Origin: an uncultured Candidatus Poseidoniales archaeon
Lineage (GTDB): Archaea; Thermoplasmatota; Poseidoniia; Poseidoniales; Thalassarchaeaceae
Length of the DNA: 64,000 nucleotides
Direction of reading: 5' to 3'
Assembly: GCA_964645485.1 (NCBI GenBank)
Contig: CAZXZO010000001.1
Location: 18,203-82,202, forward strand
Program-made: the position numbers and the translations under genes
Shown here: in pieces, positions 36,701-64,000 of the stretch
Numbering within the stretch: the stretch's first letter is position 1
How the letters are laid out: each line of letters starts with the position of its first letter
The notes under the pieces: model-generated
Told to the model about the DNA's origin: nothing
Databases searched by the model: none
What the model saw: only the letters and a program-made list of their open reading frames with translations

Positions 36701-38532
36701 AAGTTCAAAATGAATATCCTCATCCATCTTTCACAGTCAACCGAGATTCTAATTTGTCTCAGTCAGTCATAACACTAGATGGCTCAGCATCGTTTGACCC
36801 TGAGGGTGATACAATTTCTGCATGGTGGCATTCCGATATTGATGGTGACTTGAATACATCAATGTCAAACCCACTAATTTGGAACGGGTATCTTAGCCAA
36901 GGTTCACACACCATTAGCCTACGACTCTCTGATGATGATTCATACCATATCAATCAGTGGTCAGCACCATTTGAAGTTGAGGTTGAGGTACTCAACTCTC
37001 CTCCGCTAGCCCACATTGAATTACCAACTCCAACTGATAGTATTGAGTCAGCCGACTTAGTTCAATTTTCAGCCTATGGTTCAGGCGATTGGGATGCTCC
37101 TTGCTCAGAAGCATTTCCCGAAATGTCAACTGGTTGGTTGTGTAACCCAGGCAACCCTTCTATGCCCGATACAGTAACACCTGTGTGGACTAGTGATTTG
37201 CTTAGTGAACCATTTGGCGGTGATTGGCAGGTAGAGGCTAGATTACCTAGTGGCACTAATGTAGTCACTCTCACAGTCTCAGATGGGGTAAACCCCCCAG
37301 TAACCGATTCTATTACTCTTGAAGTTTCAACAAGCGCCCCGATTCTAGTCCTCAGTTCGCCAGACGATGGGATTGAAGTTGTGAGCAACGAAGTTGTACT
37401 TTTTGACCCTCAACAATCTTGGGACCCCGATGGTGATAACTTTACTTTTTCAGTCACTTCTAACCTGTTTAGTGAGCCTATACTTGATGCGGTTAATCCA
37501 AATTTCTGGTACTCAAGATATGTTCCCTCGGGTGATCACATCCTAACCTACACTGTTACAGATGAAACTGGGAAGAGTAGGAATGAGACGCGTTCTTTGA
37601 AGGTTTTAGCATCTCCACCTGTGGCAATTATTTCCTCACCTCAAGAAGGAGAAACAATTTCTCCTGGTGCAAACATAATGCTCAATGCTAACGAATCATG
37701 GGATGCGGATGAGGACATAATTCTCTATCGCTGGTACCTTGGTCAGGGTTCATCTGCTGTGTTGTTGAATGAGACTGAAATGGGCAACCAGACATTGGCT
37801 CCGGGATTACATCTGGTTTCACTCCAAGTCAAAGATAGTCGAGGTTCTTCAACATGGGCTTTCGTCAACATTACTGTTGAAGATTCGTGGCCGGTCTTGG
37901 ATGATTTGTTAGTTGAACCGGGCACATTGACTGCTGGAGTTGAATCAGTAATTACAACCAGGGCTATCGTACTTGATGCTGATATGACAACATGGGAATG
38001 CGTAGGTTGGGCATCTCAAGGTGGAATTGAGACCGAATTTTCACTTTCTGATGATGGTACAAATTCTGATGACGTTGCTAGTGACAGCACTTGGACAGGC
38101 CAAGTGAAAATCACACCTGGCCGTGATGGATGGGTGAATATCGAGGTAGTTTGCCGTGATGGACCCAGTGCTGAACCTCAATTATCAAATCGTCTTTCTT
38201 CTACTATTAGAGTTGAAGGAGCATCTCAACAATCATCATTCTTTGATGTCATAATGGATAGTACAATTGCAATTATTCTTGGTCTTCTTGGACTTGCAAT
38301 TGTCGGCGGCGTATTCTTCACATTTGCTCGTAAACGCCGCCTTGCTGCCGACTTACAGATGATTGAATCGTGGGGTGTTGGTGGATTTGGTGATGAAGAT
38401 GATGAGTCACCATTTGATGAAGAAGATACAATCGCTGTATCAGGCAATGTAAAACCTCTTGACTTTACTGAAGAGGTAGATTCTGAAGGAATATCAGATG
38501 ATGATATTCCTTCGATGGTTGAACTTGACTAA
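33724..38532 (+). CDS. Large surface protein: right-handed beta-helix repeats, PKD-like Ig domains, C-terminal TM
   Basis: Parallel beta-helix-type repeats in the N-half; FNASNSWDLDND, LDGSASFDPEGD and LNANESWDADED PKD motifs; LSDDGTNSDDVASDSTWTG; TM and acidic tail. Confidence 0.85.
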   Translation: MAGGMRTALLFTLVLAFSSVVSILPVEEHQNLSSEEESLPTSSKALIIWSGTMDINNDFTVAAGDELRIFAGTTLQMGPGVRIYVDGKVVADGTAADPITIQVQSGFTWHDGFQFNSSSRNRGSSLRNVTFNDAQFGITIFNSDPVIEDVLFNNVDLVAIDLFDGANPIIRRTTFAGGGQDVHGSMTNWRYGIGLSIGASSAPFVEDVNFTNQITRAISYWGNSGGVIRGVNITDVGGATMNISAAIFVEDSLPLIEDVSISKCDNGIYILHATDSLITRPVFRDVVVGDSQYSAIMMTKSDRSNYSTYMMGRFHNLEVFGTGGPNSSSPGLAYGTVFLNTSGGWFEDVNIHDNTINGIKLYMTDPATSFINTSITRSGALIGGTNERAGFFMRSSSNGGPSIQNLTVSESPGVGIFVSKGDVSGSDWVTEDNGNEGLLVQDAFPSVSNILSQNNGFSGLRVSNSNRLALQNFESRHNGYSAPSAQNGAGMVFVESNQYGMFAGTNVQCAQCKSIDDNWGALRVQDSVDIQFVDLEVNDPNVAQGQSAIVIDDSNMNWDGWVDFDGAEIHANLSATAPVILIDDADARLEGINLYGNHSGIQWSGRTLDSKIGNSTLVGNNCLSLSNLPKLNTWGLDVSGCSGSVTVAGSDLNLTDYIQGSVPFSITGQSYVRAISSQVTIPTLAPSVTFDEMWFVDLWVVNQFSHGLPNAIVNASFSQFETDFSTTVPYGGNKILGPFVGQRHTLTGASAVTDFSTECWYDNTQGTTGPDALNQDLMMHLCTITLVNQAPLILWDEPLNGTVTSSGAEIWFNASNSWDLDNDPITFQWISDIDGDAPSFCGGFGNGVVPGDLLVNGPDIQGQCTLTDGVHQITLEVCDDQGNCASETRTIEFVNLPPSVIVQTTPPLDWDGVLRLNFTENLHVNASDTTDAEGDFIQTGEWADYEQAGIQVSATYPLEWNRTFELATNRQFTYTMAFSDGLNPTVYYNISVEVQNEYPHPSFTVNRDSNLSQSVITLDGSASFDPEGDTISAWWHSDIDGDLNTSMSNPLIWNGYLSQGSHTISLRLSDDDSYHINQWSAPFEVEVEVLNSPPLAHIELPTPTDSIESADLVQFSAYGSGDWDAPCSEAFPEMSTGWLCNPGNPSMPDTVTPVWTSDLLSEPFGGDWQVEARLPSGTNVVTLTVSDGVNPPVTDSITLEVSTSAPILVLSSPDDGIEVVSNEVVLFDPQQSWDPDGDNFTFSVTSNLFSEPILDAVNPNFWYSRYVPSGDHILTYTVTDETGKSRNETRSLKVLASPPVAIISSPQEGETISPGANIMLNANESWDADEDIILYRWYLGQGSSAVLLNETEMGNQTLAPGLHLVSLQVKDSRGSSTWAFVNITVEDSWPVLDDLLVEPGTLTAGVESVITTRAIVLDADMTTWECVGWASQGGIETEFSLSDDGTNSDDVASDSTWTGQVKITPGRDGWVNIEVVCRDGPSAEPQLSNRLSSTIRVEGASQQSSFFDVIMDSTIAIILGLLGLAIVGGVFFTFARKRRLAADLQMIESWGVGGFGDEDDESPFDEEDTIAVSGNVKPLDFTEEVDSEGISDDDIPSMVELD

Positions 38533-47891: not shown

Positions 47892-50800
47892 ATGGGGGCC
47901 GAACGAGTAGCAAGCAGAGAGTTGTTGCTTCCTTCAGCATTGATAATTTTGATGTTACTTTCAGTAATGACTCCAATCGTTTCTTTCTCTCCTAATGATG
48001 AAACTCTAGATGAAAACCAAGTGATTGCACCTAGCACTTCATTTTCTAATGGCAGTGGCGAGCAATTTGCTGGTAATACTTTGATTATCAATGCCACAGA
48101 TTGGGTGGTTGACTCAACACGAGGGATGGATGTTTGGCAAACCACTGCCTTAAACACCTCACTTACATTTGATGAAATAAAGCTCTCAAGAGATGATAGG
48201 GGCAGGGCTAGAGGATGTTTACATCAGGACACTGGGGGTGTTTGGATTGCTACTCTCGAATTTGGGGGCGCCACGACACTTACTCAAATTGAGGCTGGAG
48301 ATGAAGAACTTGGTAAAAAATGTTCAATCATTCTCGATGAGCGTGAACTGATCCATATTGCTTATACAAATGAGTCCGGATTCCTTAGGGTTGCATATCA
48401 AAGAGCGAGTGGATTATGGAACATGAGGACAATTGAAAATGAAACCCAAGTCGCAAAAATTACCCTACTTCTTGATTCAGAAGGTGCTGAAAATGTGCTC
48501 TGGCTAGATTCCAATAACGGGCTTCATTTGTCATCATACAGTACATGGTGGACTCATCAAGACTTGTTAGTGGGGGCGAGGGTTGGCAACAATTACGAGG
48601 CTTTCATTGACTCAGATGATTCACTGCATATTTTCTATAAAAATCTCGACACAACCCAAATGATTCATGGGATACTAGCCCAAGACGGAAACTGGACTTT
48701 GACATCTCTCACTGCTGGACAAGACCTAGGACCTGCGATGTCCTTTGCCAAGGACCCTTCAACCGGAAATATCCAATATGTGTACGGTTCTTCTAATTCT
48801 TCTGAGTTAACCATTGTACGAGATTTAACCGGTCAAGAGAACGGTCGCCTTTCACCAACAATTGATACTTTGACCACAGGCTCAGTGAGTGATGAATATG
48901 CAACTCAAGCCATCAATGACCTTGACTTCGATTGTGACGGTACTGATGATTTGATTGTCAGCCGACCGGCTGCAAATTCTGAAACCGGCGCAGTCGACAT
49001 CTTTTGGGGCTCTGGCATGGGGATTTCAACTAACCCAGATTACAATCTTACAGGAGCAGCCGGAGGCGATAGGTTTGGTTCAGCCATAGCAAACGCAGGC
49101 GATGTAAATGGCGATGGCTGTTCTGACCTGCTGGTTGGGGCTATTGGTGCAACAAACAGTTTTGGATTTGCAACAGGAGCATCTTACATCTTCTATGGAG
49201 GTAATCGTAATTATACATCCGCAAACTGGTCAGACACAGGTGAAGGTGGCGGAGATAAATTCGGTGGAAATGTCGTATCTGCTGGCGATATCAATAACGA
49301 TAGTTACGCAGATATTCTAATTGCTGCTACTGGTTTCACTCAACAGGGAGGTGAAGGCAAAGTCTACCTTTATTTGGGCTCACCAACCGGACCTGGCACA
49401 GACCACGATTGGTATACTCGTGGTTATTGGTCGAATGTAATTCAAGGTTGGTCAATGGCTGGAATTGGAGACATCAATGGTGATGGTTTTGATGATATTG
49501 CCTTAGGTGCAGCCGGCTCGTTTTCAGACCTAACTGGCAACGGTAGAGTAGAAGTCTACACAGGCTCACAGGCCGGAACCATGACAATAGACAATTACTG
49601 GACCACTACAACAACCAATACATTGCTAGGTTACTCTGTTGTTGGTATTGGGGATGTTGATCAAGATGGGTTTGATGACTTTGCCTATGGTGAGCCATTG
49701 TATGACAATTTGGCACTAGGTAAGGTGACAATTCTCCGTGGCTCTGCAAATGGACTTCCTGACAACCCTGCCTTGGAATTGATTGGTACAGAATCAAGTC
49801 AAGCACTTGGAAGCGCGCTGGCAACGATTGGTGATATTAATGACGACGGTCTTTCAGAAATTGCCATTTCTTCAATAGGGATTAACAGCGTTGGAGCAGG
49901 GAAGGTCGAGTACTTCTTTGCTGACAATACTCAACTTCTTCGTCGTGGGGTAAACTCAGTTCTCGTGGAAGGGGTGAGTGGACAACACCTCGGTAGGACA
50001 ATAAACGGTGGAGGAGACATTGATGGGGATGGCAAATTTGAGATTATTGTTACATCTCTTGACAAGGACATGGCTGGCAATTCCGCAGGGGTCGTTATTC
50101 AAATTGAAAAGCGAAATAGTGAATATTCTGATCTTCAGATTGGGGGTGGCGCGCAAATTGATGGTGTTGACCTAAATTTGGATGATTCTGGTAGGTTCCA
50201 CTTATTTTTGAAATCAGCAGTCATGAATCAATCCCTCCACCTTGAACGGCCAAATGCTGTCACAAATGCTGCTGATGAATGGGAACAAAGTTCCTTTTCA
50301 CTAAATGCATCAATGGTGGTCACTCGGTCTGGAAAAACGATTGTACTCGATGAAAACAATAATTTCGTTGAGCAAGCAGGTCACACAATTCTGACAACCC
50401 AGCATCCTCTTGCGACTCACAATCGGATGGACATTGATTTGGTAATTAATGATGAGCAGAGTTTAATTTTCACCACATCTTACCAAAATGCCACAGTCTC
50501 AGATGTTGAGTTAAGGGCAGAAACTGATTCTGGTTTCTTGACTTCTACTGTTGTAGCAAATAGTTCACTTGGCGCTGGAATATCAACTGCATTCGCTCTC
50601 ACTCATCAATCGCCAAGTATTGATGATAGTTGGAACATCATCGGTTCAAATTCAAATGGTTCCGAACAATATGGGGATAGTTCGGGTTGTCAACTTGATA
50701 ATGGAACAGGTGTTCTAGTTAGTTCAGTTACAACTTCAAACCAGACTATACTCAGTTACATTGAGGAAAATGGCAACGTTTCAACACTCTCAATTTGGGG

Positions 50801-53800
50801 ATACCAAAGTGAAAATGATGTTGCTTGTAGAACTGACGGAACCGTACAAGTTGCACTCGTAAATAGTTCGGGAATGGCAGAAGTGTTGTCAATAAATGGC
50901 ACCAACATCACATCATTGATGACTACAACATTAACTCCCACTATCGGTATGAATTCCCATATATTGAATCAAAACACAGTCTTGTTTACCGAACAAACTC
51001 AGACATTTGATGCAAAACTATGTACCGTGAGTACAGCCAATTGTGTGCCGTTGTTAATTGGTTATTTTTCAAGCGATTTGTTTAGTGCTGGAAGTACCGG
51101 AGAAGGAATTCCTTGGATAGCCTATGATGGTGGCCCGGGAGTGGAGAGAATGACATTAGCAATAATTCATGGTTCAATGGTTGAACCCGTGTACACCGCC
51201 ACAGCACCAGGTGATATTTGCGGTGTTGATATGGAAACAGATGCTGCAGGTGTAATCAGAGTAGTTGCGTGTCATTTCGATTTGAACTCAAACAATCGTC
51301 TGACGAGTTACCGGATTTATGGGGATTGGGACCGAGATTTCGTACCGTCACCTTGGGACGATGTTCCATTTGTCGGTGGCCAATGGAATGATGCTGATGC
51401 GGATGGATATGGAGATAACCCAGGTGGGCCAACGCCTGACAGGTGCATTAACAGTGGAACTGATTTACTTGATAGAGGAAGTCGATGGGGATACTTTGGT
51501 TGTAGTGACCAAGACCTAGATGGCTGGGCAGACGCAGTTGATATTTGCCAGAATACGAGAGGCAACTCATGGGTTGACAGAAAAGGCTGTGAAGATTCTG
51601 ATGGAGATGGTTGGAGCACAGATTCTGACCAAAACCCAGTCAATTGGCATCAACAAAGAGATACAGATGGCGATGGCCATTATGATAACCATGGTCCAGA
51701 TTGTTGTGGCGGTTCTTCAACCGATATTTACCCATTGAATGGGAACCAGTGGGAAGATTTGGATAATGATGGTTGGGGAGATAATCATAATTTCCAATAT
51801 GCCAACGAATCTCTGCGATTATTCAACGGTCATGATGTTGATGGTGATGGCACTCCTGACTGGTTCAACATTGATTGGACAGGCGACCAGTGCCCCGGAT
51901 TCCAGGGATTTTCAGCGCATGACCGCGGAGGATGTTTAGATACGGACGGAGATGGTTGGTCAGACCCTCACGTTGCTCAAAACGCTCAAGAAAGTACATG
52001 GATTTACAATCGGAGCCAATGTAACGCGATAGATTCTGATGGCCGAAATGGATGCGCTGATAATTGGCCAGGAGGAAATGGCAATTCAGGTGAAGACTGT
52101 GGCAGTCTTGCAAATTGTTCTCAACAATGGCATGACAAAGATGGTGATGGATATGGAGATAATTCAACACCGCTCTCTTGGAGGCAAGATGCTTTCAACG
52201 AAGATCCAAGTCAATGGAACGATACTGACTTGGATGGTTTTGGTGATAATCCAACAGGTACTACACCGGACTCTTGCCCGGTCGATTTTGGTAATTCTAC
52301 CGTTGATAGGTTTGGGTGTCTAGATGACGACGGTGATGGGTGGTCAAACCCCGACTCTACTGAAAGTGCACATCCTACAGGTAACGCCGATTCAAATAGT
52401 TCTAATGCTGATCAGTGGAGAGATTCCGATGGAGATGGATTCGGGGATTTCACAAATCGCACAAATGGTGACTTCTGCCCGCAACAATTTGGGTATGCAA
52501 ATGGGGAAGGTGGACGCGGATGTCCTCTTCCGGCAGAGGATGCTGATGGAGATGGAATTATTGATGAAGACGATGTTTGTGGCAACACGACATTTGGTGA
52601 AGTCGTTGATACATCAGGACAGTGGGTAGGTTGCTCTGAAAATCAAAAGGATGACGATGGAGATAATGTTTCAAATTCACTAGACCGATGTGCTAATACA
52701 ACGGCGCTTGCAGAGGTTGATGAAAACGGTTGTAGTCAGGACCAATTGACACTCGATACAGATGCTGATGGTGTTCCTGATATTGCAGATGAATGTCCAA
52801 ATACAGACACGCTTCAAATCGATGAGTATTTTGACAATTTAACAGGATGCGCCACATATCAATTGGATGAGGATAATGATGGTGTTTCCAATGCATTGGA
52901 TGAATGCCCTGGCACTACCGATGGTGCGGAAGTAGATGAAGTCGGTTGTCCACGTAATGACGTCGATTCTGATGGTGACGGTTTCTTCGATGATGTAGAT
53001 ATGTTTCCTCTTGAGTCTACCCAGTGGGGAGATTTGGATCTGGATGGATTTGGTAACGAAATAGACGGTTTCCAAGGTGATAGTTGTACAAATGTTGCCG
53101 GTAATTCAACAGGTTCCCCAAACGGTGACCGGTGGGGTTGCCCAGATACAGATGGTGATGGTTGGTCTGACCCTGGAGCGGGATGGGATGTTGAGGATGG
53201 GGCTGATGCTTTCATCAATGACCCAACTCAATGGAAAGACAATGATGGCGATGGATTTGGAGACAATCTTACAGGCTTTGAAGGCGATGAATGCCCCATT
53301 ACACCGGGAGTTATTGATGGCGTTCTAGGAGTAGGATGTCCAGCGGCAACGGGTGTTGATGGCAACGCAGTAGATGAATGCTCAAAATGGGAGGATTTTT
53401 ACAATCCAACTTTAAGTCCCGGAATGATAGTTCCAGAGGAATATCAATCGTGTGAATGGTACGATGAGTGGTATGGTTCAACCGAATCTTCTTCTTTGCC
53501 TTTGAAGATGATTGGCATTGGTGTTGGAGCATTAATTGCTCTTGTGGTGTTGTCTTTGGTTGTCGTCAGAATAATTCGTGGAGGAGATGATTGGGATGAT
53601 GATGAGGATGATATGTATGATGATTTTGAAGAGGATGACGATGACGATATATTCGCTTCAAGGTCTGGCGGAGGATGGAGAGCACCCGCAGCAAGACAGG
53701 ACTTTTCAGGTCTAGGCGATAATCAACCTAGTAGAGGTGGCCCGGCTGGTCGGGCAGGCCCTCCAAGTCGTGGTGCTGGTGGACCAACACCGAGTCCTAG

Positions 53801-54308
53801 AGCCGGTGGACCGAGTCGCCAAGGCGGCTCAAGTAGCCCGCCGGGTCGTTCCCCGGGTCCCCCGGGCCGTGCCGGACCTCCGAGTCGTGCTGGCCCTCCG
53901 AGTCGTACAGGCCCTCCCGGTCGTGCAAGCCCTGCTCCTAAAGCGAAGAAGACTCGGCGAACAGTAAGCTCAGATTCTGCGCCACCTGCAGATGCACCTT
54001 CTCGTAAAGTCCGCAAAGTTTCAGGTGCACCAAAACCTGAAAATGTCAAGACAAGGTCTACCAAAAAGAACCGTAGTGAGCCAAAGGTTGAAGCCCAACA
54101 AAGGCCAAAGAAAAAGCCCAAGGCACCCAGCAAATGGGAGGACCTTTTCACCCCGAGAGATTCAGCCAATTTCGAGAAGTCACTCGGTGATGCTCGTGAC
54201 TCCATCGCTGCAGGAGAATCCGAAAGAAACATTCTGCGTGGATTGCAAACAAATGGTTGGAATGCCAAACAATCTCGATACATAATCAATGAAGCGGGCT
54301 TAAATTGA
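47892..54308 (+). CDS. Giant single-pass protein with FG-GAP propeller, TSP3-like repeats, TM and low-complexity cytoplasmic tail
   Basis: Seven FG-GAP/DxNxDG blades at about 48900-50100; DxDGDG/Cys repeats at about 51330-53350; TM at about 53510-53580; G/P/R/S-rich tail. Confidence 0.9.
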   Translation: MGAERVASRELLLPSALIILMLLSVMTPIVSFSPNDETLDENQVIAPSTSFSNGSGEQFAGNTLIINATDWVVDSTRGMDVWQTTALNTSLTFDEIKLSRDDRGRARGCLHQDTGGVWIATLEFGGATTLTQIEAGDEELGKKCSIILDERELIHIAYTNESGFLRVAYQRASGLWNMRTIENETQVAKITLLLDSEGAENVLWLDSNNGLHLSSYSTWWTHQDLLVGARVGNNYEAFIDSDDSLHIFYKNLDTTQMIHGILAQDGNWTLTSLTAGQDLGPAMSFAKDPSTGNIQYVYGSSNSSELTIVRDLTGQENGRLSPTIDTLTTGSVSDEYATQAINDLDFDCDGTDDLIVSRPAANSETGAVDIFWGSGMGISTNPDYNLTGAAGGDRFGSAIANAGDVNGDGCSDLLVGAIGATNSFGFATGASYIFYGGNRNYTSANWSDTGEGGGDKFGGNVVSAGDINNDSYADILIAATGFTQQGGEGKVYLYLGSPTGPGTDHDWYTRGYWSNVIQGWSMAGIGDINGDGFDDIALGAAGSFSDLTGNGRVEVYTGSQAGTMTIDNYWTTTTTNTLLGYSVVGIGDVDQDGFDDFAYGEPLYDNLALGKVTILRGSANGLPDNPALELIGTESSQALGSALATIGDINDDGLSEIAISSIGINSVGAGKVEYFFADNTQLLRRGVNSVLVEGVSGQHLGRTINGGGDIDGDGKFEIIVTSLDKDMAGNSAGVVIQIEKRNSEYSDLQIGGGAQIDGVDLNLDDSGRFHLFLKSAVMNQSLHLERPNAVTNAADEWEQSSFSLNASMVVTRSGKTIVLDENNNFVEQAGHTILTTQHPLATHNRMDIDLVINDEQSLIFTTSYQNATVSDVELRAETDSGFLTSTVVANSSLGAGISTAFALTHQSPSIDDSWNIIGSNSNGSEQYGDSSGCQLDNGTGVLVSSVTTSNQTILSYIEENGNVSTLSIWGYQSENDVACRTDGTVQVALVNSSGMAEVLSINGTNITSLMTTTLTPTIGMNSHILNQNTVLFTEQTQTFDAKLCTVSTANCVPLLIGYFSSDLFSAGSTGEGIPWIAYDGGPGVERMTLAIIHGSMVEPVYTATAPGDICGVDMETDAAGVIRVVACHFDLNSNNRLTSYRIYGDWDRDFVPSPWDDVPFVGGQWNDADADGYGDNPGGPTPDRCINSGTDLLDRGSRWGYFGCSDQDLDGWADAVDICQNTRGNSWVDRKGCEDSDGDGWSTDSDQNPVNWHQQRDTDGDGHYDNHGPDCCGGSSTDIYPLNGNQWEDLDNDGWGDNHNFQYANESLRLFNGHDVDGDGTPDWFNIDWTGDQCPGFQGFSAHDRGGCLDTDGDGWSDPHVAQNAQESTWIYNRSQCNAIDSDGRNGCADNWPGGNGNSGEDCGSLANCSQQWHDKDGDGYGDNSTPLSWRQDAFNEDPSQWNDTDLDGFGDNPTGTTPDSCPVDFGNSTVDRFGCLDDDGDGWSNPDSTESAHPTGNADSNSSNADQWRDSDGDGFGDFTNRTNGDFCPQQFGYANGEGGRGCPLPAEDADGDGIIDEDDVCGNTTFGEVVDTSGQWVGCSENQKDDDGDNVSNSLDRCANTTALAEVDENGCSQDQLTLDTDADGVPDIADECPNTDTLQIDEYFDNLTGCATYQLDEDNDGVSNALDECPGTTDGAEVDEVGCPRNDVDSDGDGFFDDVDMFPLESTQWGDLDLDGFGNEIDGFQGDSCTNVAGNSTGSPNGDRWGCPDTDGDGWSDPGAGWDVEDGADAFINDPTQWKDNDGDGFGDNLTGFEGDECPITPGVIDGVLGVGCPAATGVDGNAVDECSKWEDFYNPTLSPGMIVPEEYQSCEWYDEWYGSTESSSLPLKMIGIGVGALIALVVLSLVVVRIIRGGDDWDDDEDDMYDDFEEDDDDDIFASRSGGGWRAPAARQDFSGLGDNQPSRGGPAGRAGPPSRGAGGPTPSPRAGGPSRQGGSSSPPGRSPGPPGRAGPPSRAGPPSRTGPPGRASPAPKAKKTRRTVSSDSAPPADAPSRKVRKVSGAPKPENVKTRSTKKNRSEPKVEAQQRPKKKPKAPSKWEDLFTPRDSANFEKSLGDARDSIAAGESERNILRGLQTNGWNAKQSRYIINEAGLN

Positions 54309-57126: not shown

Positions 57127-59400
57127 TTACTCTTCTTCCGGTTTTTCATTATCGGATGTTGAATTATTTTTGTAGGTGGATAACTTGAATCCAACGCCAA
57201 TCAAGATGAGTATCATTACAAAGTAGATTGCTGAATTAACATTTTGATGTAATCCTAGGTCAAAAACCTCGTACAACATGCTTGTGGGTTCTTGCATTAC
57301 TAGAGTTTGGTCTGCATTCACATTTCGTTCAATTTGGGTAATCCCAGTTGACCAAACGACTTCAACTGATTTCACCGAATCATCAGTATCCAATCCGAAA
57401 TGCACTGTTGGTTCGTTGCTTCCTAGGAATCCGCTTCCAGCATACACATGCTGGCGTAATTCGTGACCATCTTCGAGGGTCACAATTACAAGACATCCTG
57501 TTCCATAACTGTTGGAATAATGACGCTGTCCAGAGTCCTGGTTAGTATTGACACCTGTTTGTCGGCCTTCAAGTTGTACTTTGAGCCAATGGCGGCCAGT
57601 TTCCTCAACAGCATTATTTGAGAATAATTGAGGTGCTCTATCAGAATGGCCAAGCATGATATCTAAGTCACCGTCATTATCATAATCAAAGATTGAGGCA
57701 CCCATTGTTTTGTTACCATTGAAGCCAGTTCTCAAGCCGATTTCACCACTTATGTCAACAAAATTGACATAACCATCACCATCGATATCTCCATCGTTGC
57801 GATACAATGTGTTATTGTTGTAGGCAGTGAACCGGTTGATTCTTCCAACACCAAAGAAAATGTCCAAATCTCCATCAAGGTCGTAGTCAAAGAATTGACA
57901 AGCCCAATTTACAGCAACAAATGAGCCCGCTGAGCCATTATCGCGGAACCCTAGGTTTCGACTATTCTCACTAAAGGAATTCCCACCCTCGTTTTCCCAG
58001 AGGTAGTTTGGTCCGAAGTTTGAGTGACACAGGTCAAGATAACCATCTCCATTCCAATCCCCAGCGTGTGCGCCCATGCCAGTTCCTGGTAGGTCCATAT
58101 CCAACTGTTCAGTCACCACAGTGAACGTGCCATCGCGATTGTTGTGATAGATAGGGGACATACCAAAGTCAGATGCAACATAGAGGTCTTCCCAACCATC
58201 ATTGTTGTAGTCAAACCATACTCCAGCGAAAGATAGTCCAGTTCCTCTGTGGTCTGCAGAAGCGATTTGTGCCATTGTAGAAGGATTAGAAGGACTCGCT
58301 TGGTCCATTCTGTAAAGTCCTGAAAGGAATAATTGATTGGGGGCATCTGAGACTTCAGCCTGACCGCTAACACCTGCGTGGTTTGTTACATCGCTAAATT
58401 CTATTTCTCCATCTCCGTCGATATCTCCATCATTGCGATACAGGAAGTTGGTTTCTGTGCGTGCCCAATATAATTCCTCATTTACAATTCCAAGATTCAT
58501 AGAGTAGAGGTCAACATCACCATCTTGGTCGTAGTCTGCCCAAATTGCCGTTGTGCTATGACCATAATTTGCAACCCCGCTTACAAATATCACTTGGGGA
58601 GGATTTTCTTCGTCGTAGCCTTCTCCTCCATCGGTCATGATAACAGATGAAATTTCACCATCACCGGTTACGATTGCTTCAGCCTTCGCACCATTCCCAG
58701 AGGAATCGCGGAAGTAAATTGCTGGAGCAAGTCCACCAGATGCAGCATAATTGGAGCCTGAGTTTTGCATCACAACTTCTGTGACATTTCCATTTACCAC
58801 AACTGCATTTGCAATTGCGCCTTCACCAACTCCAGTCGCTGTAGTTACATCAGTGAAAACACAATTTCCATTATTTTTGAAGAGGATATTTCTTTCTCCG
58901 GATTCCAAATTATCAACATCTGATTCTCCAAAGGCGCTTAGATAAACATCTTTGTCGCCATCATTATCGTAATCTGCCCAAGAAGATCCAATTACAGTAG
59001 TATTTCCTAAATTCATACCAGAATTAGCCGTCCAATCGGTAAAGGTGCCGTCTCCATTGTTAAGCATAAATTGAATCGAACCAGATTCAAATTCTAAATT
59101 TTCGTAAGAAAGGTGGTCAAATCTAGCTGTAACAATGACATCCATGTCTCCATCTTGATCACAATCATCAACCGAGACTCCTGGACCATAACTAGCCCAG
59201 TATGATAGAGGCCCAGTATCAACAAGACTGATACCACTGGCCTCTGAAACATCAGTGAAAGTTACCTGGCTTGTGGTTGGAACTCCTTCTGAATGTGCAA
59301 GTGCAGGAGAAGCAAGGGCAGATAAAAGAGTTGAAATCATTAGAACCGCCATTAAAATAGCAGTTTTATTCAGCCGATTAATTGAATTTTCTACAATCAT
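57127..59400 (-). CDS. CRTAC1 family protein (FG-GAP/VCBS repeats plus ASPIC/UnbV), C-terminal TM
   Basis: FTDVSEASG and ADYDNDGDKDVY repeats, HWLKVQL, GSGFLGSNEPTVHFGL. Confidence 0.93.
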   Translation of the reverse strand: MIVENSINRLNKTAILMAVLMISTLLSALASPALAHSEGVPTTSQVTFTDVSEASGISLVDTGPLSYWASYGPGVSVDDCDQDGDMDVIVTARFDHLSYENLEFESGSIQFMLNNGDGTFTDWTANSGMNLGNTTVIGSSWADYDNDGDKDVYLSAFGESDVDNLESGERNILFKNNGNCVFTDVTTATGVGEGAIANAVVVNGNVTEVVMQNSGSNYAASGGLAPAIYFRDSSGNGAKAEAIVTGDGEISSVIMTDGGEGYDEENPPQVIFVSGVANYGHSTTAIWADYDQDGDVDLYSMNLGIVNEELYWARTETNFLYRNDGDIDGDGEIEFSDVTNHAGVSGQAEVSDAPNQLFLSGLYRMDQASPSNPSTMAQIASADHRGTGLSFAGVWFDYNNDGWEDLYVASDFGMSPIYHNNRDGTFTVVTEQLDMDLPGTGMGAHAGDWNGDGYLDLCHSNFGPNYLWENEGGNSFSENSRNLGFRDNGSAGSFVAVNWACQFFDYDLDGDLDIFFGVGRINRFTAYNNNTLYRNDGDIDGDGYVNFVDISGEIGLRTGFNGNKTMGASIFDYDNDGDLDIMLGHSDRAPQLFSNNAVEETGRHWLKVQLEGRQTGVNTNQDSGQRHYSNSYGTGCLVIVTLEDGHELRQHVYAGSGFLGSNEPTVHFGLDTDDSVKSVEVVWSTGITQIERNVNADQTLVMQEPTSMLYEVFDLGLHQNVNSAIYFVMILILIGVGFKLSTYKNNSTSDNEKPEEE

Positions 59401-59556
59401 TTACTCCCTCCGATGAAGTTTCACCAACATTTGCTACACCGATATTACCTATGAATGGTACCCATACTATTTTTTCTCTATTTTAGAATAAAATTAGATT
59501 ACTCAGGGAGAACAAACTTCTAACCCGAAGTTGGAGTCGAAGAAAGTGGTTGAGGT

Positions 59557-61467
59557 ATGTCTATCCAAAATAGGTCGCGAAACCACCCTCAATACATCTC
59601 CCCAACGGTACTTCTTTCCCAAATAATTGTACTCTCACTATTATCGGTCTCGTTAGCGCTTCCTACAATAGCATCACCAGTTGTAAAAGAAGAGTCGAGT
59701 GTATTCGCATCTCAGGATGAAATACCACCTCAAGAAACTCGAAATAATGATGGTAGTTACAATAATATCGCTAACTCCAATTGGGGTGCGGTTAACAGCC
59801 AAATCAATCGATTGACTTCACCGTCATTCAATGACAGCATTTCTGAGATGGCACACTTAGAATATGAAAATCCTAGAATTATTTCAAATCAAGTGTGTGT
59901 AGAAACAGGTGTAACACCAAGCCCCCTTGGTCTGTCAAACATGAATGTTCTTTGGTCTGAATTTGTGAACAACGATATGCAATTTTCAACACATCAAGAC
60001 TCATCTCAGGAAGGCGGTATGGAGGAGGCTCACATTTCAATTCCAATTGATGATGAAATCATGAACCCTGGTGGGGTTGAAGATTCTAGAATTAAGTATT
60101 TACGAACTTCTTACGACCCTACTACAGGGGATAGTGAAGAGAATCCTAGAGAGTATCTCAATGAGGTAAGTAGTTGGATTGATGGGAGTTCAATTTATTC
60201 ATTCAGTGTAGAATTCCAAGATTATTTACGCACGGGTGAAGGTGGCCAACTCAAAGTTACAGATGTTGATGGTTGGGACATGGTGCCTGGTCGGACCACT
60301 GACTACGTAGCAACTGTGTCAGGCGATGACCCTAATCTCCAATTTTTTTCCGGTGATTCAAGAAACTTAGAGCACATTGGTCTGACTTCACTCCAAGTCT
60401 TGTTCCTTAGAGAACACAACCGGATAGCAGAAGGCTTGAATGAGCGCCATTCGGATTGGGATGATGAACAGATTTTTCAGCGGGCTAAGAAAATAGTTCA
60501 AGCAGAAATTCAAGCGATTACATACAATGAATATTTGCCATCTATTGGAATTATTTTGGAAGATTACTCCGGGTATAATTCAACAATTAATCCACACTTA
60601 AGTAATGAATTCATTTTGTTAGCAGCAATTTCTACAGGCAGCCAAATGGCTGATGGTTGGTTACAATTTGATGAAGGATTGAATGAATCCACTGGCGGCC
60701 ACCTAGAATTGCGGGATGGCTTTTGGACATCATCTGCGTTAATTGAGGCTGGTGGAATTGATACTACAATTCGAGGGGCAGCATATGATACTCAACGCGA
60801 AATGGATTTGGCTGTAATCCCTAGTCTTCGTAACTTAATGAGTGGAGCAATGTGGGGTGGTTGGATGGATGATTGTGCAATGGACATTCAACGTGGCCGT
60901 GACCGTGGGCTGACAAATTACAATTCCTTGAGAGAAGGTCTTGGATTAGAAAGAGTCACAATTTGGAGTGATATCACTTCTAATGTTGATTCACAAGAGA
61001 AACTAGCCTCTGTGTACTCTGATGTTGACAGCGTTGATGCATATATCGGCGTGATGGCAGAAGATAGGCTTGAATCTTCCATCTATGGGGAAACTCAGCA
61101 ACTGTTGGTGTTGGACCAGTTCCAGAGGGTTCGAGATGGTGATAGATTTTGGTATGAAAATGATGCGGAATTAAATTCCTTAATCGATGAGTTCAACTCT
61201 TTACGATTGTCGGACATCATTCTCAGAAATACAGAAATTGAATCCATTCAATGTGATGTTTTCTTTGCAGAGACGGACTCAAGCAGTTTTGAATGCCATC
61301 TTGAAAATTACGAAACCTCATCAGGTTCAGATGGCATTGAGGAGGATGAAAGTTCAAACAAAATGAGTGCTATAATCGTAATGGGAATTGTTTTAATTTT
61401 AGTCGCGGTAGCAATATTATCTGGGAGAGCGCCAGATAGACAGGGAAAAAATGTGGAGGAAGAATAA
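59557..61467 (+). CDS. Animal-type heme peroxidase homologue lacking both catalytic His (pseudo-peroxidase), membrane anchored
   Basis: RNNDGSYNN, GDSRNLEH, FLREHNRIA, QRGRDRG, RVRDGDRFWYE; distal segment WSEFVNND and proximal segment ISTGSQ lack His. Confidence 0.85.
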   Translation: MSIQNRSRNHPQYISPTVLLSQIIVLSLLSVSLALPTIASPVVKEESSVFASQDEIPPQETRNNDGSYNNIANSNWGAVNSQINRLTSPSFNDSISEMAHLEYENPRIISNQVCVETGVTPSPLGLSNMNVLWSEFVNNDMQFSTHQDSSQEGGMEEAHISIPIDDEIMNPGGVEDSRIKYLRTSYDPTTGDSEENPREYLNEVSSWIDGSSIYSFSVEFQDYLRTGEGGQLKVTDVDGWDMVPGRTTDYVATVSGDDPNLQFFSGDSRNLEHIGLTSLQVLFLREHNRIAEGLNERHSDWDDEQIFQRAKKIVQAEIQAITYNEYLPSIGIILEDYSGYNSTINPHLSNEFILLAAISTGSQMADGWLQFDEGLNESTGGHLELRDGFWTSSALIEAGGIDTTIRGAAYDTQREMDLAVIPSLRNLMSGAMWGGWMDDCAMDIQRGRDRGLTNYNSLREGLGLERVTIWSDITSNVDSQEKLASVYSDVDSVDAYIGVMAEDRLESSIYGETQQLLVLDQFQRVRDGDRFWYENDAELNSLIDEFNSLRLSDIILRNTEIESIQCDVFFAETDSSSFECHLENYETSSGSDGIEEDESSNKMSAIIVMGIVLILVAVAILSGRAPDRQGKNVEEE

Positions 61468-63491
61468 TGTTAGGAAATATTGAATCAAACAAAGGACTAT
61501 CAAATCGCAAAAGATTTGCTTTAATGACTGTGGCACTTTTCATGCTTGTAGGTTTGGCAACCGTTTCGGCTTCAACCATTGAAAAGGAGGATGGTGCAAG
61601 GACCTATGCCTCGGCTGGCGAATCTGTAATGAATTCTGAAACATCGTATGGATATAATGGCTCAGGAGTTAATCTTGAAAACCCAGAATATGGCGAGGTA
61701 GGCTCACAACTTATTCGATTCGCAGATAGATATTCTACAACCGATGGCGAAAATCTAACCTTTTGGGACCGCTCAGATATTCCCAACCCACGCGAAATAA
61801 GTAATTCACTTTGCCATGAAGAACAAACACACCCGGATTCACGTGGACTGTCTGACTTCAACTGGTTGTGGGGGCAGTTCATCACCCATGATATTGACCA
61901 TACTACAACTCAGGATGGTAGGACACCAGACCAAGACCAACCAGACACAGCATATATTCCAATCTCGGAAAATGATGAATGGATGGGATTCCCCGGTGGT
62001 TTGCAAATGAGATTTTTCCGCTCAATAGTTGCAGATGGAACTGGAGACGGAGACCCGCTAAATCAAAGAGAACATCCTAACACTATTTCGACTTGGATAG
62101 ATGGTTCGGTTGTTTACGGTAGCGATGAAGGAAGAGCTGATTGGTTGCGAGAACACCGTGCAGGACTCATGAAAGTCACTGAGTTTGAGGAAGGAGATTT
62201 GCTGCCACAGGCAAATTATGATGAGGACCCAACTACTCCTGGAATGTCGTTTGCTGGTTTCAATTTTACAAATTCATTTGTCGCGGGAGATGCAAGAGCG
62301 AACGAACATGTAGCGCTACTATCGATGCACATATTGTTCGTTCGAGAGCACAACCGATTGGCAGGAGAAATTTTGGAGAGGAATCCCGATTGGTCTGATG
62401 AACAGATATACCAATATGCAAGGCACATCAATATTGGACTGATAGAGTCTATCACATACAATGAATTCTTGCCATCTTTAGGTATTGAATTAGACCCATA
62501 CGAAGGTTACAATTCAGCAATTAACCCGGCAATTTCCAATGAGTTTGCAACCGTAGCGTTCCGCATGGGTCATAGCCAAATAGGTAGTACTATGCTCAGA
62601 TTAGATGAATCAAGAATGACCGCGACAGATGGCCATCTCACTCTTAGAGAAGGGTTCTTTGATGTCACTCCAATAACTGAGGGCGGGGGGATAGACCCGA
62701 TTTTACGAGGCCTTGCTTTCAATGTACAGCCTGAAAATGACTTGATGTTTGTTGATGATTTGCGAAATCAAATGTTTGGTCCTCCTGGAGCAGGCGGAAT
62801 GGATTTGTGTGCAATTGATACTCAACGAGGTCGGGACCATGGTGTTCCTGATTTCAACACTGTTCGAGAGGCATTTGGATTAGAAAGATATACGAATTGG
62901 AGTGATTTCTCAAGTGACAACGCTACGATTGAAGCATTAAACAACACGTTTCCTGATGTCGACAGTGTTGATGCACTTATCGGAATGTTGGCAGAAGACC
63001 ATGTAGAAGATTCAGCATTAGGAGAAACAATGCGTGTCATAATTAAGGAGCAATTTACAAGATTGAGAGATGGTGACAGACTTTACTATGGTTCAGAATA
63101 TTCAGAATTGGCTGGCATTGAAGACCAGATTGAAAGCACAACTCTGTCAGAGGTAATCCTTAGGAATACGAAAATTGAGAATATTCAATGCAATGTGTTT
63201 TTCTCAGAGCAAGTCAACGCTGAAATGGGTTGTAGTTTGGAAAATATAGATGGTACAAGTGACGGTTCGGGCAATAACGCCCCATCAACAAGCAATAGCG
63301 ATATTATCACATATGCGGTACCATTAGTTTTGATTATTTTAGTTCTGATAGTGGCAATTTCACAGTCAAGCATTTCCAATGAAAATGATAAGAAAGATAT
63401 CCCAGAAAAGCAATCACTAAATGAAGATGAAAATGGGTCACAACCAATTCTTGCAACTAGTCAACATGAGGAAATCAACCAGCACAGGTAG
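61467..63491 (+). CDS. Animal-type heme peroxidase (peroxidase-cyclooxygenase superfamily), membrane anchored
   Basis: WGQFITHD (distal Q/H), GDARANEH (distal R, ester-forming E), FVREHNRLA, AFRMGHSQ (proximal H), QRGRDHG, RLRDGDR; start overlaps the upstream stop (TAATG). Confidence 0.93.
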   Translation: MLGNIESNKGLSNRKRFALMTVALFMLVGLATVSASTIEKEDGARTYASAGESVMNSETSYGYNGSGVNLENPEYGEVGSQLIRFADRYSTTDGENLTFWDRSDIPNPREISNSLCHEEQTHPDSRGLSDFNWLWGQFITHDIDHTTTQDGRTPDQDQPDTAYIPISENDEWMGFPGGLQMRFFRSIVADGTGDGDPLNQREHPNTISTWIDGSVVYGSDEGRADWLREHRAGLMKVTEFEEGDLLPQANYDEDPTTPGMSFAGFNFTNSFVAGDARANEHVALLSMHILFVREHNRLAGEILERNPDWSDEQIYQYARHINIGLIESITYNEFLPSLGIELDPYEGYNSAINPAISNEFATVAFRMGHSQIGSTMLRLDESRMTATDGHLTLREGFFDVTPITEGGGIDPILRGLAFNVQPENDLMFVDDLRNQMFGPPGAGGMDLCAIDTQRGRDHGVPDFNTVREAFGLERYTNWSDFSSDNATIEALNNTFPDVDSVDALIGMLAEDHVEDSALGETMRVIIKEQFTRLRDGDRLYYGSEYSELAGIEDQIESTTLSEVILRNTKIENIQCNVFFSEQVNAEMGCSLENIDGTSDGSGNNAPSTSNSDIITYAVPLVLIILVLIVAISQSSISNENDKKDIPEKQSLNEDENGSQPILATSQHEEINQHR

Positions 63492-63558: not shown

Positions 63559-64000
63559 ATGTCTGTAACCCTGTTCTCAGGGGACAACATGAACCGAGTT
63601 GTTGGTTATCGGGTGCTAGCACTGATTGCTGTGCTAGGTGTTTTGGTAACGGCCTACAATAGCGCAATCATAATCGACTTTTTCGCCACAGAAGATGAAC
63701 CTCCAACCGATGATGTAGATCCATTCGCTGCTGAGATGGTGATGGATGAAAGCGGCGAATCCGAAGATGATAGCGGTGCTGCCCCAGATTCGGAAGAATC
63801 AAGAGATTCCGAGCCAATTTTTGATGAGGTGGCGAGTGATTCAGTAGGAATCGGATTTACAGCAATTATTGCGGCTCTACTTTTAGCCATGGTAACCGTT
63901 GGTCTTGTCGGCAGTTTGGGAGTTGGAATCATAGTGAGTGAAGGCGTAAAAACCGGACTTATTTTGGCATTAGCTGGGCCACTTTTGGCGAAACTTCACG
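63559..64000 (+). CDS. Membrane protein, truncated by the window end; start 63559 or 63589
   Basis: Open frame MNRVVGYRVLALIAVLGVLV...acidic linker...second TM, running off the window. Confidence 0.7.
   Translation, partial: MSVTLFSGDNMNRVVGYRVLALIAVLGVLVTAYNSAIIIDFFATEDEPPTDDVDPFAAEMVMDESGESEDDSGAAPDSEESRDSEPIFDEVASDSVGIGFTAIIAALLLAMVTVGLVGSLGVGIIVSEGVKTGLILALAGPLLAKLH

What the first reader, a model, noticed from the sequence alone, without database searches (positions are those of the whole stretch)
59557..63491. Coupled active plus pseudo animal-type heme peroxidase pair in a marine archaeon
Seen: two paralogues joined by a TAATG stop/start overlap, each with an N-terminal signal/TM and a C-terminal TM. 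The second retains distal Gln/His/Arg, the heme-linking Glu and the proximal His, but has Thr at the second ester (Asp) position. The first has lost both histidines (WSEFVNND; ISTGSQ) yet is full length and uninterrupted. Established: this superfamily (myelo- and lactoperoxidase) oxidises halides and thiocyanate and is known mainly from eukaryotes and some bacteria; a Dictyostelium member with a single Glu ester prefers iodide/thiocyanate; human DUOX peroxidase-like domains lack the heme His. Inference: a surface heterodimer of a (halo)peroxidase with a regulatory or scaffold pseudoenzyme, possibly in iodide/bromide chemistry, polymer attack, Mn oxidation or defence. I know of no characterised archaeal example.
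Basis: partly seen in the sequence, partly recalled or inferred. Interest (0 to 1): 0.8.

Follow-up and report, generated by a model that had tools for sequence, protein, structure and literature searches.

The report
Archaeal surface peroxidase with haem-less twin
A Marine Group II ocean archaeon carries two back-to-back genes for membrane-anchored "animal-type" haem peroxidases, one with a working active site and one that has lost its haem-binding residues but is still kept by selection. Both sit next to a cartilage-acidic-protein-like surface propeller that related archaea fuse directly to the peroxidase.

Summary
Gene A (59557-61467) and gene B (61467-63491) are full-length PF03098 peroxidases joined by TAATG. 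Each has a signal peptide and a C-terminal membrane anchor.

B keeps distal Gln/His/Arg, the ester Glu and the proximal His, with Thr at the ester-Asp position. A has lost the distal Gln and His, the proximal His and the propionate-binding Arg.

The contig is archaeal (Marine Group IIb). The tandem pair is specific to one genus. A is under purifying selection (dN/dS about 0.14, against about 0.10 for B), so it is a conserved pseudoenzyme and not a decaying gene.

- The Thr/Ser change is clade-wide and goes with a proximal Asn-to-Asp change.
- The divergent neighbour, a CRTAC1-like FG-GAP/ASPIC propeller, is linked to the peroxidase in almost all MGII loci examined. In many genera the two are fused, and the opposite domain order occurs elsewhere.
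- A, not B, kept the ancestral -EEE cytoplasmic tail.
- The genome has no detectable KatG or catalase.

The heterodimer idea is plausible but untested.

This scan reported the same pair before in other MGIIb genomes (e1-1237300, e1-1478782). One paper lists "PXDN" genes in MGIIb. I rate it a new variant of a known kind, of moderate interest.

The parts
57127..59400 (-). CRTAC1-like surface propeller (757 aa). It has a signal peptide, FG-GAP/VCBS repeats, an ASPIC/UnbV domain, a C-terminal TM and a cytoplasmic tail ending -EEE. It is transcribed divergently from gene A.
   Evidence: Pfam FG-GAP_3 2e-32 and UnbV_ASPIC 2e-17. The only PDB hit is cartilage acidic protein 1, 9etn, E 9e-14. Hydropathy. 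The gene is linked or fused to the peroxidase across MGII.
59401..59556 (.). 156-bp AT-rich intergenic region shared by the divergent propeller gene and the A-B operon. It probably holds the promoters.
   Evidence: Read directly. No promoter test was possible for archaea.
59557..61467 (+). Gene A: haem-less pseudo-peroxidase, 636 aa, a type I membrane protein. Peroxidase domain at aa 62-569.
59953..59976 (+). A distal motif WSEFVNND. Gln is replaced by Glu and the distal His by Asn. The motif is conserved in all A copies.
60616..60642 (+). A former proximal-His helix, LAAISTGSQ. His is replaced by Gly and the propionate Arg is lost. This stretch varies among A copies.
61351..61464 (+). A C-terminal TM anchor and short cytoplasmic tail ending -EEE.
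61455..61469 (+). GGAGG Shine-Dalgarno-like site inside the end of A, followed by the TAATG stop/start overlap.
61467..63491 (+). Gene B: catalytically complete single-ester haem peroxidase, 674 aa, a type I membrane protein. Peroxidase domain at aa 63-578.
61869..61892 (+). B distal motif WGQFITHD, with Gln, Thr at the ester-Asp position, the distal His and the Ca-ligand Asp.
62286..62309 (+). B motif GDARANEH, with the distal Arg and the ester-forming Glu.
62559..62576 (+). B motif FRMGHS, with the propionate Arg and the proximal His.
62817..62843 (+). B motif DTQRGRDHG. Asp stands where the family has the Asn that hydrogen-bonds the proximal His, followed by the conserved Arg.
   Evidence: Residue counting on the DdPoxA alignment against PMC5787809. 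Statistics.
63288..63488 (+). B C-terminal TM and a cytoplasmic tail of about 40 aa with no -EEE.
63559..64000 (+). Start of a membrane-tethered HTH regulator (HVO_0163-type HTH plus a MarR-like wHTH). It runs off the window. The gene is conserved directly after B in 4 sister species.

Best explanation
The locus encodes a cell-surface oxidative module of a Marine Group IIb archaeon, built from three single-pass, outward-facing membrane proteins.

- B is the working enzyme, a Family-6-like (LspPOX/DdPoxA-like) haem peroxidase. Its haem can be tied to the protein only through the Glu ester, and its proximal triad is His-Asp-Arg instead of His-Asn-Arg.
- By analogy with the single-ester DdPoxA, B should use H2O2 to oxidise easy substrates at the cell surface, such as iodide, thiocyanate and phenolic or tyrosyl groups. 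It should not oxidise chloride and should be poor on bromide (inferred).
- The CRTAC1-like Ca-propeller is its conserved functional partner. It probably binds or presents a macromolecular target or positions the enzyme (partnership shown by gene linkage and fusion; role inferred).
- A arose by a tandem duplication in the ancestor of this genus, followed by division of labour. A kept the ancestral gene position beside the propeller and the ancestral -EEE cytoplasmic tail, but lost haem ligation. B kept catalysis and lost that tail.
- A therefore most likely acts as a non-catalytic adaptor or scaffold subunit for B and/or the propeller (inferred, not shown).
For: - **Pair and motifs:**
- **Archaeal setting:**
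  - Wyosine genes TYW1 and TYW2, found in archaea and eukaryotes and not in bacteria (from general knowledge), lie in the window.
  - An archaeal SSU rRNA lies in the same bin.
  - Relatives are named Thalassarchaeaceae or Poseidoniales.
- **Distribution:** PF03098 occurs in 33 of 201 genomes of the order. Two copies occur only in the window's own genus. Seven genomes of the genus, this one included, carry the complete tandem pair. An eighth has the pair split across a contig end.
- **Selection on A:** dN/dS is 0.13-0.15 at dS below 1, against 0.07-0.12 for B. The A and B subtrees mirror each other.
- **Origin of A:** an in-genus duplication is not rejected (AU p = 0.33).
- **Propeller linkage:**
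  - The propeller gene is divergent, convergent, co-directional with a 4-nt gap, or fused in nearly all MGII loci examined.
  - About 37 fusion clusters appear in the large database.
  - The opposite domain order occurs in P0311 and P0331.
- **-EEE tails:** nearly all A copies end -EEE, as do 5 of 5 propeller proteins of the genus. Seven of the 13 separate single-copy peroxidases in other genera end exactly -EEE, and most of the rest have related acidic ends. None of 7 B copies ends -EEE. Genome-wide, 3.1% of ORFs end -EEE.
- **Active-site covariation:** Thr/Ser at the ester-Asp position goes with a proximal Asp in 87 of 91 MGII-type sequences and in 37 fusion proteins. Asp goes with Asn in 68 of 83 other (mostly bacterial) sequences.
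- **Chemistry by analogy:** single-ester DdPoxA oxidises I- and SCN- very fast, oxidises Br- poorly and does not oxidise Cl- (PMC5787809).
- **Other H2O2 enzymes:** no KatG or catalase domain was found in this genome, which is 82% complete.
Against: - No experiment or expression data were available for any of the three proteins.
- Haem binding by B is inferred from residues only.
- A-B contact rests on gene order, translational coupling and the complementary losses. None of these proves binding.
- One MGII genome (G004) has the peroxidase without a propeller gene within 4 kb.
- In the free tree A branches at the base of all MGII copies on a long stem. An older origin is therefore not excluded.
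- The meaning of the -EEE tail is unknown.
Confidence: 0.55

Rival explanations
1. A is an independent, non-enzymatic surface protein, for example a ligand-binding or adhesion protein that reuses the peroxidase fold as peroxinectin-type proteins do. It does not bind B, and the adjacency merely reflects the duplication.
For: A has its own signal peptide, anchor and tail. A has 11 clade-invariant substitutions, including two Gly-to-Trp changes and a conserved distal motif, which would fit a new binding surface.
Against: The stop/start overlap with an internal SD site and the complementary loss of tail against catalysis fit a shared function better. The pair is never seen separated in 7 complete loci.
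Confidence: 0.25
2. B's main role is to remove H2O2 at the cell surface, replacing the KatG or catalase that this lineage lacks. Whatever reductant is at hand serves as donor, and the oxidised products have no function of their own.
For: No PF00141 or PF00199 was found in the genome. PMC10783094 reports katG/gpx mainly in MGIIa and 'PXDN' mainly in MGIIb. MGII live in sunlit, H2O2-containing surface water (general knowledge).
Against: Only 25 of 99 sampled genomes of the family carry the gene. A dedicated propeller partner and a pseudo-subunit are not expected for plain detoxification. The genome is only 82% complete.
Confidence: 0.25
3. The module oxidises Mn(II) or produces extracellular superoxide, as described for bacterial animal-haem-peroxidase homologues (MopA; Roseobacter).
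For: Such activities are published for bacterial members of the same Pfam family (titles and abstracts, e.g. PMC6247904, PMC6414704).
Against: The MGII proteins lack the hemolysin-type Ca-binding repeats of MopA-like proteins. Their closest solved relatives are halide and thiocyanate oxidisers. Nothing in the locus points to Mn.
Confidence: 0.1
4. Gene A is a decaying pseudogene, or the pair is bacterial contamination of the bin.
For: A lacks the catalytic histidines. The nearest non-archaeal relatives of the family are bacterial.
Against: A is an uninterrupted ORF in at least 8 species with dN/dS of about 0.14. The window carries wyosine-pathway genes. MGII copies form one clade against the bacterial outgroups, with SH-aLRT 99. 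The family is found in 33 independent MGII genomes.
Confidence: 0.02

Closest known systems
DdPoxA, secreted peroxidase A of Dictyostelium discoideum (PDB 6erc; PMC5787809)
   Same: Same superfamily, E 1e-88 to B. It has only the Glu ester, because the Asp position is not acidic (Ile there, Thr in B). Distal Gln-His-Arg and the proximal His and Arg are conserved.
   Different: DdPoxA is soluble, monomeric and eukaryotic. Its proximal partner is Asn, whereas B has Asp. It has no pseudo-paralogue, no propeller partner and no membrane anchor.
Cyanobacterial Family 6 peroxidase (best PDB hit 8s6c, deposited as 'Lactoperoxidase', 528 aa; LspPOX-type)
   Same: Closest solved sequence, E 1e-104 over the whole domain. 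It is prokaryotic with a single domain.
   Different: It has both ester residues (Asp and Glu) and the proximal Asn. LspPOX oxidises bromide (PMC5787809). It is not membrane-anchored.
Peroxidase-homology domain of dual oxidases (DUOX1, PDB 6wxr/7d3e; Family 7)
   Same: It is an extracellular peroxidase-fold domain that has lost the proximal His (PMC4420034) and works with a catalytic partner. It is the best precedent for A as a structural pseudo-peroxidase. It matches B at E 6e-41.
   Different: In DUOX the dead domain is fused to an NADPH oxidase, not paired with a live peroxidase. It is eukaryotic. A arose independently within one archaeal genus.
MGII peroxidase-propeller fusion proteins and CRTAC1 (PDB 9etn)
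   Same: The same peroxidase clade and the same FG-GAP/ASPIC module occur as one 1113-1234-aa chain in other MGII genera. The propeller is the only PDB-detectable relative of human CRTAC1 in this locus.
   Different: Here the modules are separate genes, and a third, haem-less copy has been added. I found no paper linking CRTAC1-type proteins to peroxidases.
Two-domain T9SS peroxidases of Bacteroidota (e.g. P0034, P0041)
   Same: They carry tandem peroxidase modules. In one protein (P0055) the second domain has also lost His/His/Glu.
   Different: The domains are fused in one chain and are usually both active, with canonical Asp/Asn residues. They are bacterial and secreted by T9SS.

Membership tests
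Peroxidase-cyclooxygenase superfamily (Pfam PF03098) | Full-length match to the family profile | tested here: met
   A 411 bits and B 470 bits, both covering the 530-position model.
Peroxidase-cyclooxygenase superfamily, catalytically active member | Distal Gln-His-Arg triad | tested here: met
   Met for B (WGQFITHD, GDARANEH). Not met for A (Glu and Asn replace Gln and His; the Arg is kept).
Peroxidase-cyclooxygenase superfamily, catalytically active member | Proximal His ligand with the propionate Arg | tested here: met
   Met for B (FRMGHS). Not met for A (AISTGS, with both residues lost).
Peroxidase-cyclooxygenase superfamily, catalytically active member | Proximal His hydrogen-bonded to Asn (the rule outside Families 4 and 7; PMC4420034) | tested here: not met
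   Both A and B have Asp at that position. It aligns to DdPoxA Asn-403. Asp occurs in 87 of 91 MGII-type sequences.
Two-ester peroxidases (Families 1, 2 and LspPOX-type) | Asp before the distal His, forming the second haem ester | tested here: not met
   Thr in B, and Thr or Ser in all active MGII copies.
Single-ester peroxidase (DdPoxA type) | Glu ester residue present and Asp ester residue absent; covalent haem link actually formed | tested here: inconclusive
   The residue pattern is met in B. The covalent bond itself cannot be tested without protein.
Haem-less peroxidase-fold pseudoenzyme (DUOX PHD type) | Fold kept, haem ligands lost, purifying selection | tested here: met
   For A: full profile match, ligands lost in all copies, dN/dS 0.13-0.15. 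Absence of haem is not testable here.
Obligate A-B heteromer | Physical contact between the two ectodomains | not testable with these tools
   Only indirect evidence is available: the stop/start overlap and the complementary losses.
CRTAC1/ASPIC family (neighbour gene) | FG-GAP/VCBS propeller plus an ASPIC/UnbV domain | tested here: met

The most novel reading that the evidence does not exclude
The peroxidase and the CRTAC1-like propeller form an undescribed two-part extracellular oxidation system. It has been assembled repeatedly, as neighbours, as fusions in both domain orders, and in archaea, bacteria and a record named for a coral. In this system the propeller binds the target and the peroxidase modifies it. 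In this genus a haem-less twin has become an obligate adaptor that carries the lineage's -EEE cytoplasmic tag. This would give a first functional handle on the CRTAC1 family and on the -EEE tag. It would also make MGII archaea candidates for iodide or organic-matter oxidation in the surface ocean.
Probability: 0.2. Interest if true: 0.75.

Novelty: new variant of a known kind. Interest (0 to 1): 0.55.

Why it matters
Marine Group II archaea are among the most abundant archaea of the sunlit ocean and remain uncultured. A dedicated, outward-facing H2O2-using enzyme system would bear on three questions:
- how these archaea cope with, or exploit, photochemically made peroxide;
- how they attack organic matter;
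- who oxidises iodide in seawater.

For enzymologists, the clade offers a natural series of single-ester peroxidases with a His-Asp-Arg proximal triad, a coupled pair of substitutions that should shift redox potential.

For evolutionary biology, it is a clean prokaryotic case of a duplicated enzyme splitting into a catalytic copy and a conserved dead copy.

The repeated fusion to a CRTAC1-like propeller gives a testable lead for a protein family whose molecular role is unknown, in animals as well.

Tried and rejected
- **Complex prediction:** I ran A residues 71-569 with B residues 78-578, both with alignments. The result was ipSAE 0.00, verdict 'no answer'. This is not evidence either way. 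The chains had to be trimmed to fit the 1000-residue limit, and the TM segments and tails were left out.
- **Other libraries:** NCBIfam gave no family for either protein. Rfam and tRNA scans of the window found nothing.
- **Literature:**
  - 'Marine Group II' plus 'heme peroxidase' gave 0 papers.
  - 'PF03098' plus 'archaea' gave nothing relevant.
  - A CRTAC1/FG-GAP/ASPIC search gave no link to peroxidases.
  - The insect double peroxidase DBLOX exists, but I did not check its residues, so I do not use it as a comparison.
- **Rejected readings:** the decaying-pseudogene and contamination readings fail on selection, synteny and phylogeny.
- **Older-paralogue reading:** the free tree places A as sister to all MGII peroxidases, which would make it an old paralogue. 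I did not adopt this, because A sits on a long stem (0.75), occurs only in one genus, and the constrained tree is not rejected (AU p = 0.33). It is not excluded.
- **Structure prediction:** I did not run it on A. The tool returns no coordinates, so it could not show whether the two new Trp residues fill the haem pocket.
Full report
**1. The observation**

The window has two same-strand ORFs at 59557-61467 (A, 636 aa) and 61467-63491 (B, 674 aa). The junction reads TAATG, so the stop of A and the start of B share one base. A GGAGG sits 7 nt upstream of B's ATG inside the end of A, which fits co-transcription and coupled translation.

Both proteins match Pfam An_peroxidase (PF03098) over the whole 530-position model, at E 7e-123 and 1e-140. 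They are 39% identical to each other. A Kyte-Doolittle scan gives one N-terminal hydrophobic segment and one C-terminal membrane span in each. Both are therefore exported type I membrane proteins with the peroxidase domain outside.

**2. Active sites**

The best solved relatives of B are a 528-aa cyanobacterial-type enzyme (8s6c, E 1e-104) and Dictyostelium DdPoxA (6erc, E 1e-88). I read the residue-by-residue alignments against the residue numbers in PMC5787809.
- B has the distal Gln, His and Arg, the ester-forming Glu, the proximal His and the preceding Arg.
- B has Thr where two-ester enzymes have the ester Asp. DdPoxA has Ile there.
- B has Asp where DdPoxA has Asn-403, the hydrogen-bond partner of the proximal His.
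- A has Glu for the distal Gln, Asn for the distal His and Gly for the proximal His, and has lost the preceding Arg.
- A keeps the distal Arg, the Glu and the Ca-loop motif.

**3. Is it archaeal?**

- The window is part of a 162-kb contig of a 1.94-Mb bin, 82% complete with 0% contamination.
- The bin holds a full archaeal SSU rRNA on another contig.
- The window itself carries TYW1 (radical SAM plus wyosine domain, 629-1753) and TYW2/Trm5 (24528-25430). From general knowledge, wyosine synthesis occurs in archaea and eukaryotes and not in bacteria.
- Named relatives of both proteins come from Thalassarchaeaceae, Poseidoniales and 'Euryarchaeota' MAGs.
- Earlier notes of this scan on the same genome also place it in Marine Group II.

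**4. Distribution and origin of the pair**

PF03098 occurs in 33 of 201 sampled genomes of the order and in 9 of 24 genera. It is commoner in the window's own family (25 of 99) than in the other large family (5 of 99). That agrees with a paper that lists 'PXDN' genes mainly in MGIIb (PMC10783094).

Two copies occur only in the window's genus.
- Seven genomes of the genus, including this one, show the complete A-B tandem.
- One further genome has the pair split at a contig end.
- One has only fragments.
- One has a single active copy on a 6-kb contig that groups with another genus.

In the large protein collection, A-type sequences form a closed set of about 27 clusters (44-100% identity). Below that set, the next hits are active MGII enzymes at 41%.

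In a maximum-likelihood tree the MGII sequences form one clade against the bacterial outgroups (SH-aLRT 99). The A clade sits on a long stem (0.75) at the base of the MGII clade. The A and B subtrees have the same species order. A tree forcing A together with the genus's B copies is only 4.5 log-likelihood units worse and is not rejected (AU p = 0.33). The simplest history is a tandem duplication in the ancestor of the genus followed by fast change in A. An older origin is not excluded.

**5. Selection**

I computed Nei-Gojobori estimates on codon alignments, using pairs with dS below 1. They give dN/dS of 0.13-0.15 for A and 0.07-0.12 for B. A is slightly less constrained than B but clearly under purifying selection.

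Constraint within A is uneven.
- The former proximal-His helix varies freely among A copies.
- The distal motif W-x-E-F-x-x-N-D is conserved.

Eleven positions are fixed in A but differ from the residue fixed in active enzymes. They include two Gly-to-Trp changes in the loop before the proximal Asp/Arg helix and two His-to-Arg changes. Whether the Trp residues fill the old haem pocket could not be tested.

**6. A clade-wide active-site variant**

The Thr is not peculiar to B.
- Of 91 MGII-type near-length relatives, 87 have Gln..Thr-His together with the proximal Asp.
- All 37 peroxidase-propeller fusion proteins scored have Thr or Ser together with Asp.
- Of 83 other (mostly bacterial) relatives, 68 have Asp-His together with Asn. 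Only 2 combine Asp-His with a proximal Asp.

Loss of the second ester residue and the Asn-to-Asp change thus go together.

PMC5787809 reports that the Fe(III)/Fe(II) potential and the ability to oxidise Br- and Cl- fall with the number of haem-protein links. It also reports that the single-ester DdPoxA oxidises I- and SCN- above 1e8 M-1 s-1, oxidises Br- poorly and does not oxidise Cl-. By inference the MGII enzymes are low-potential peroxidases suited to iodide, thiocyanate or phenolic and tyrosyl donors. This is an inference from residues, not a measurement.

**7.

The gene divergent from A (57127-59400, minus strand) encodes a 757-aa protein. It has a signal peptide, FG-GAP/VCBS repeats, an ASPIC/UnbV domain and a C-terminal anchor. 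Its only solved relative is human cartilage acidic protein 1 (9etn, E 9e-14).

A homologue lies beside the peroxidase in nearly every MGII locus examined, in four arrangements:

| Arrangement | Where |
|---|---|
| Divergent | this genus |
| Convergent | three genera |
| Co-directional, 4 nt apart | one genome |
| Fused in one chain of 1113-1234 aa (peroxidase first, propeller second, one anchor) | four genera |

Only one genome (G004) lacked the propeller gene within 4 kb.

The large collection holds about 37 clusters of such fusions at 43-56% identity to B. It also holds two proteins with the opposite order, propeller first and peroxidase last. One of these comes from a record named for the coral Porites lutea. 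Linkage that survives rearrangement, together with fusion in both orders, is strong comparative evidence that the two modules work together. What the propeller does is unknown.

**8. Division of labour after duplication**

- The cytoplasmic tails of nearly all A copies end in Glu-Glu-Glu.
- So do all five complete propeller proteins of the genus.
- Seven of the 13 separate single-copy peroxidases in other genera end exactly -EEE, and most of the others have related acidic ends.
- None of the seven B copies does. B has a longer tail of its own instead.
- About 3% of long ORFs in this genome end in -EEE. An earlier report of this scan described the ending as a conserved tag of unknown meaning (e1-3232218).

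So A kept the ancestral tail and the position next to the propeller gene, while B kept the chemistry. This complementary pattern, together with the coupled translation, is my main reason to favour A as a non-catalytic partner of B and/or the propeller. It is an argument, not a demonstration.

**9. Other context**

- No KatG-type (PF00141) or catalase (PF00199) domain was found in this 82%-complete genome. A peroxide-removal role for B is a live, non-exclusive alternative.
- A membrane-tethered HTH regulator gene follows B here and in four sister species.
- In this genus the module sits in a different neighbourhood from other genera, where it lies near RNase PH-like and riboflavin-synthase-like genes. 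The duplication therefore came with a relocation.

**10. What is known**

- The 2015 review of haem peroxidase superfamilies says the family occurs in all domains. It discusses no archaeal member, states the His-Asn rule, and notes that DUOX peroxidase domains lack the proximal His (PMC4420034).
- MGII genomics papers mention only catalase-peroxidase, or list 'PXDN' by KEGG name.
- I found no paper on the pseudo copy, the propeller linkage or the active-site covariation.
- This scan had already reported the same active/dead pair in two other MGIIb genomes (e1-1237300, e1-1478782), and the fusion form in others (e1-770023, e1-2843405). My analysis was done before I read those notes and agrees with them.

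**11. Verdict**

The enzyme belongs to a known superfamily, and its presence in MGIIb is already listed. Four features appear undescribed:
- the conserved haem-less twin;
- the complementary retention of the tail against catalysis;
- the coupled Thr/Asp active-site variant;
- the recurrent partnership with a CRTAC1-like propeller.

I class it as a new variant of a known kind and score interest at 0.55. The heterodimer, haem binding and substrate range remain to be tested.

Noticed in passing
window 61456-61464 and 57127-57138 (minus strand); L035-L039: Gene A and the neighbouring propeller protein both end in Glu-Glu-Glu, as do their orthologues across the genus. B does not. Genome-wide, 33 of 1048 ORFs of 200 aa or more end in -EEE.
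   Followed up: partly
P0055 (1156 aa, Bacteroidota-type T9SS protein): Bacteroidota two-domain peroxidases normally have two intact active sites. In P0055 the second domain has lost the distal His, the ester Glu and the proximal His. This is an independent 'live plus dead' peroxidase pair within one chain.
   Followed up: partly
P0311 (record named Porites lutea, 1329 aa) and P0331: These proteins carry an FG-GAP/ASPIC propeller followed by a peroxidase domain, the reverse order of the MGII fusions, at about 40% identity to B. I did not check whether the coral record is a true animal gene or comes from an associated microbe.
   Followed up: no
window 63559-64000 and beyond (G000:C1:81761-82830): A membrane-tethered transcription regulator (two TM segments, an acidic outer linker, an HVO_0163-type HTH and a MarR-like wHTH) follows B and is conserved in four sister species. 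In this assembly the gene is interrupted by a run of N just past the window end.
   Followed up: partly
window 629-1753 and 24528-25430: The wyosine-pathway genes TYW1/Taw1 and TYW2/Trm5-like lie 23 kb apart in the window. They are useful as markers of an archaeal contig.
   Followed up: no
window 47892-54308 and 33724-38532: Two giant surface proteins (2138 aa with FG-GAP repeats; 1602 aa with a beta-helix and PKD domains) lie upstream. The region is rich in surface-protein genes.
   Followed up: no
B cytoplasmic tail, window about 63384-63488: B's tail carries its own short motif (Asn/Asp-Glu-Asp-Glu-Asn-Gly-Ser-Gln) shared by four species of the genus. It may replace whatever the -EEE tail did.
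   Followed up: no
L041 (G143:C60): One genome assigned to the same genus has a single active peroxidase, ending -EEEE, on a 6.3-kb contig. It groups with another genus in the tree. This may be a mis-binned contig or a different locus type.
   Followed up: no
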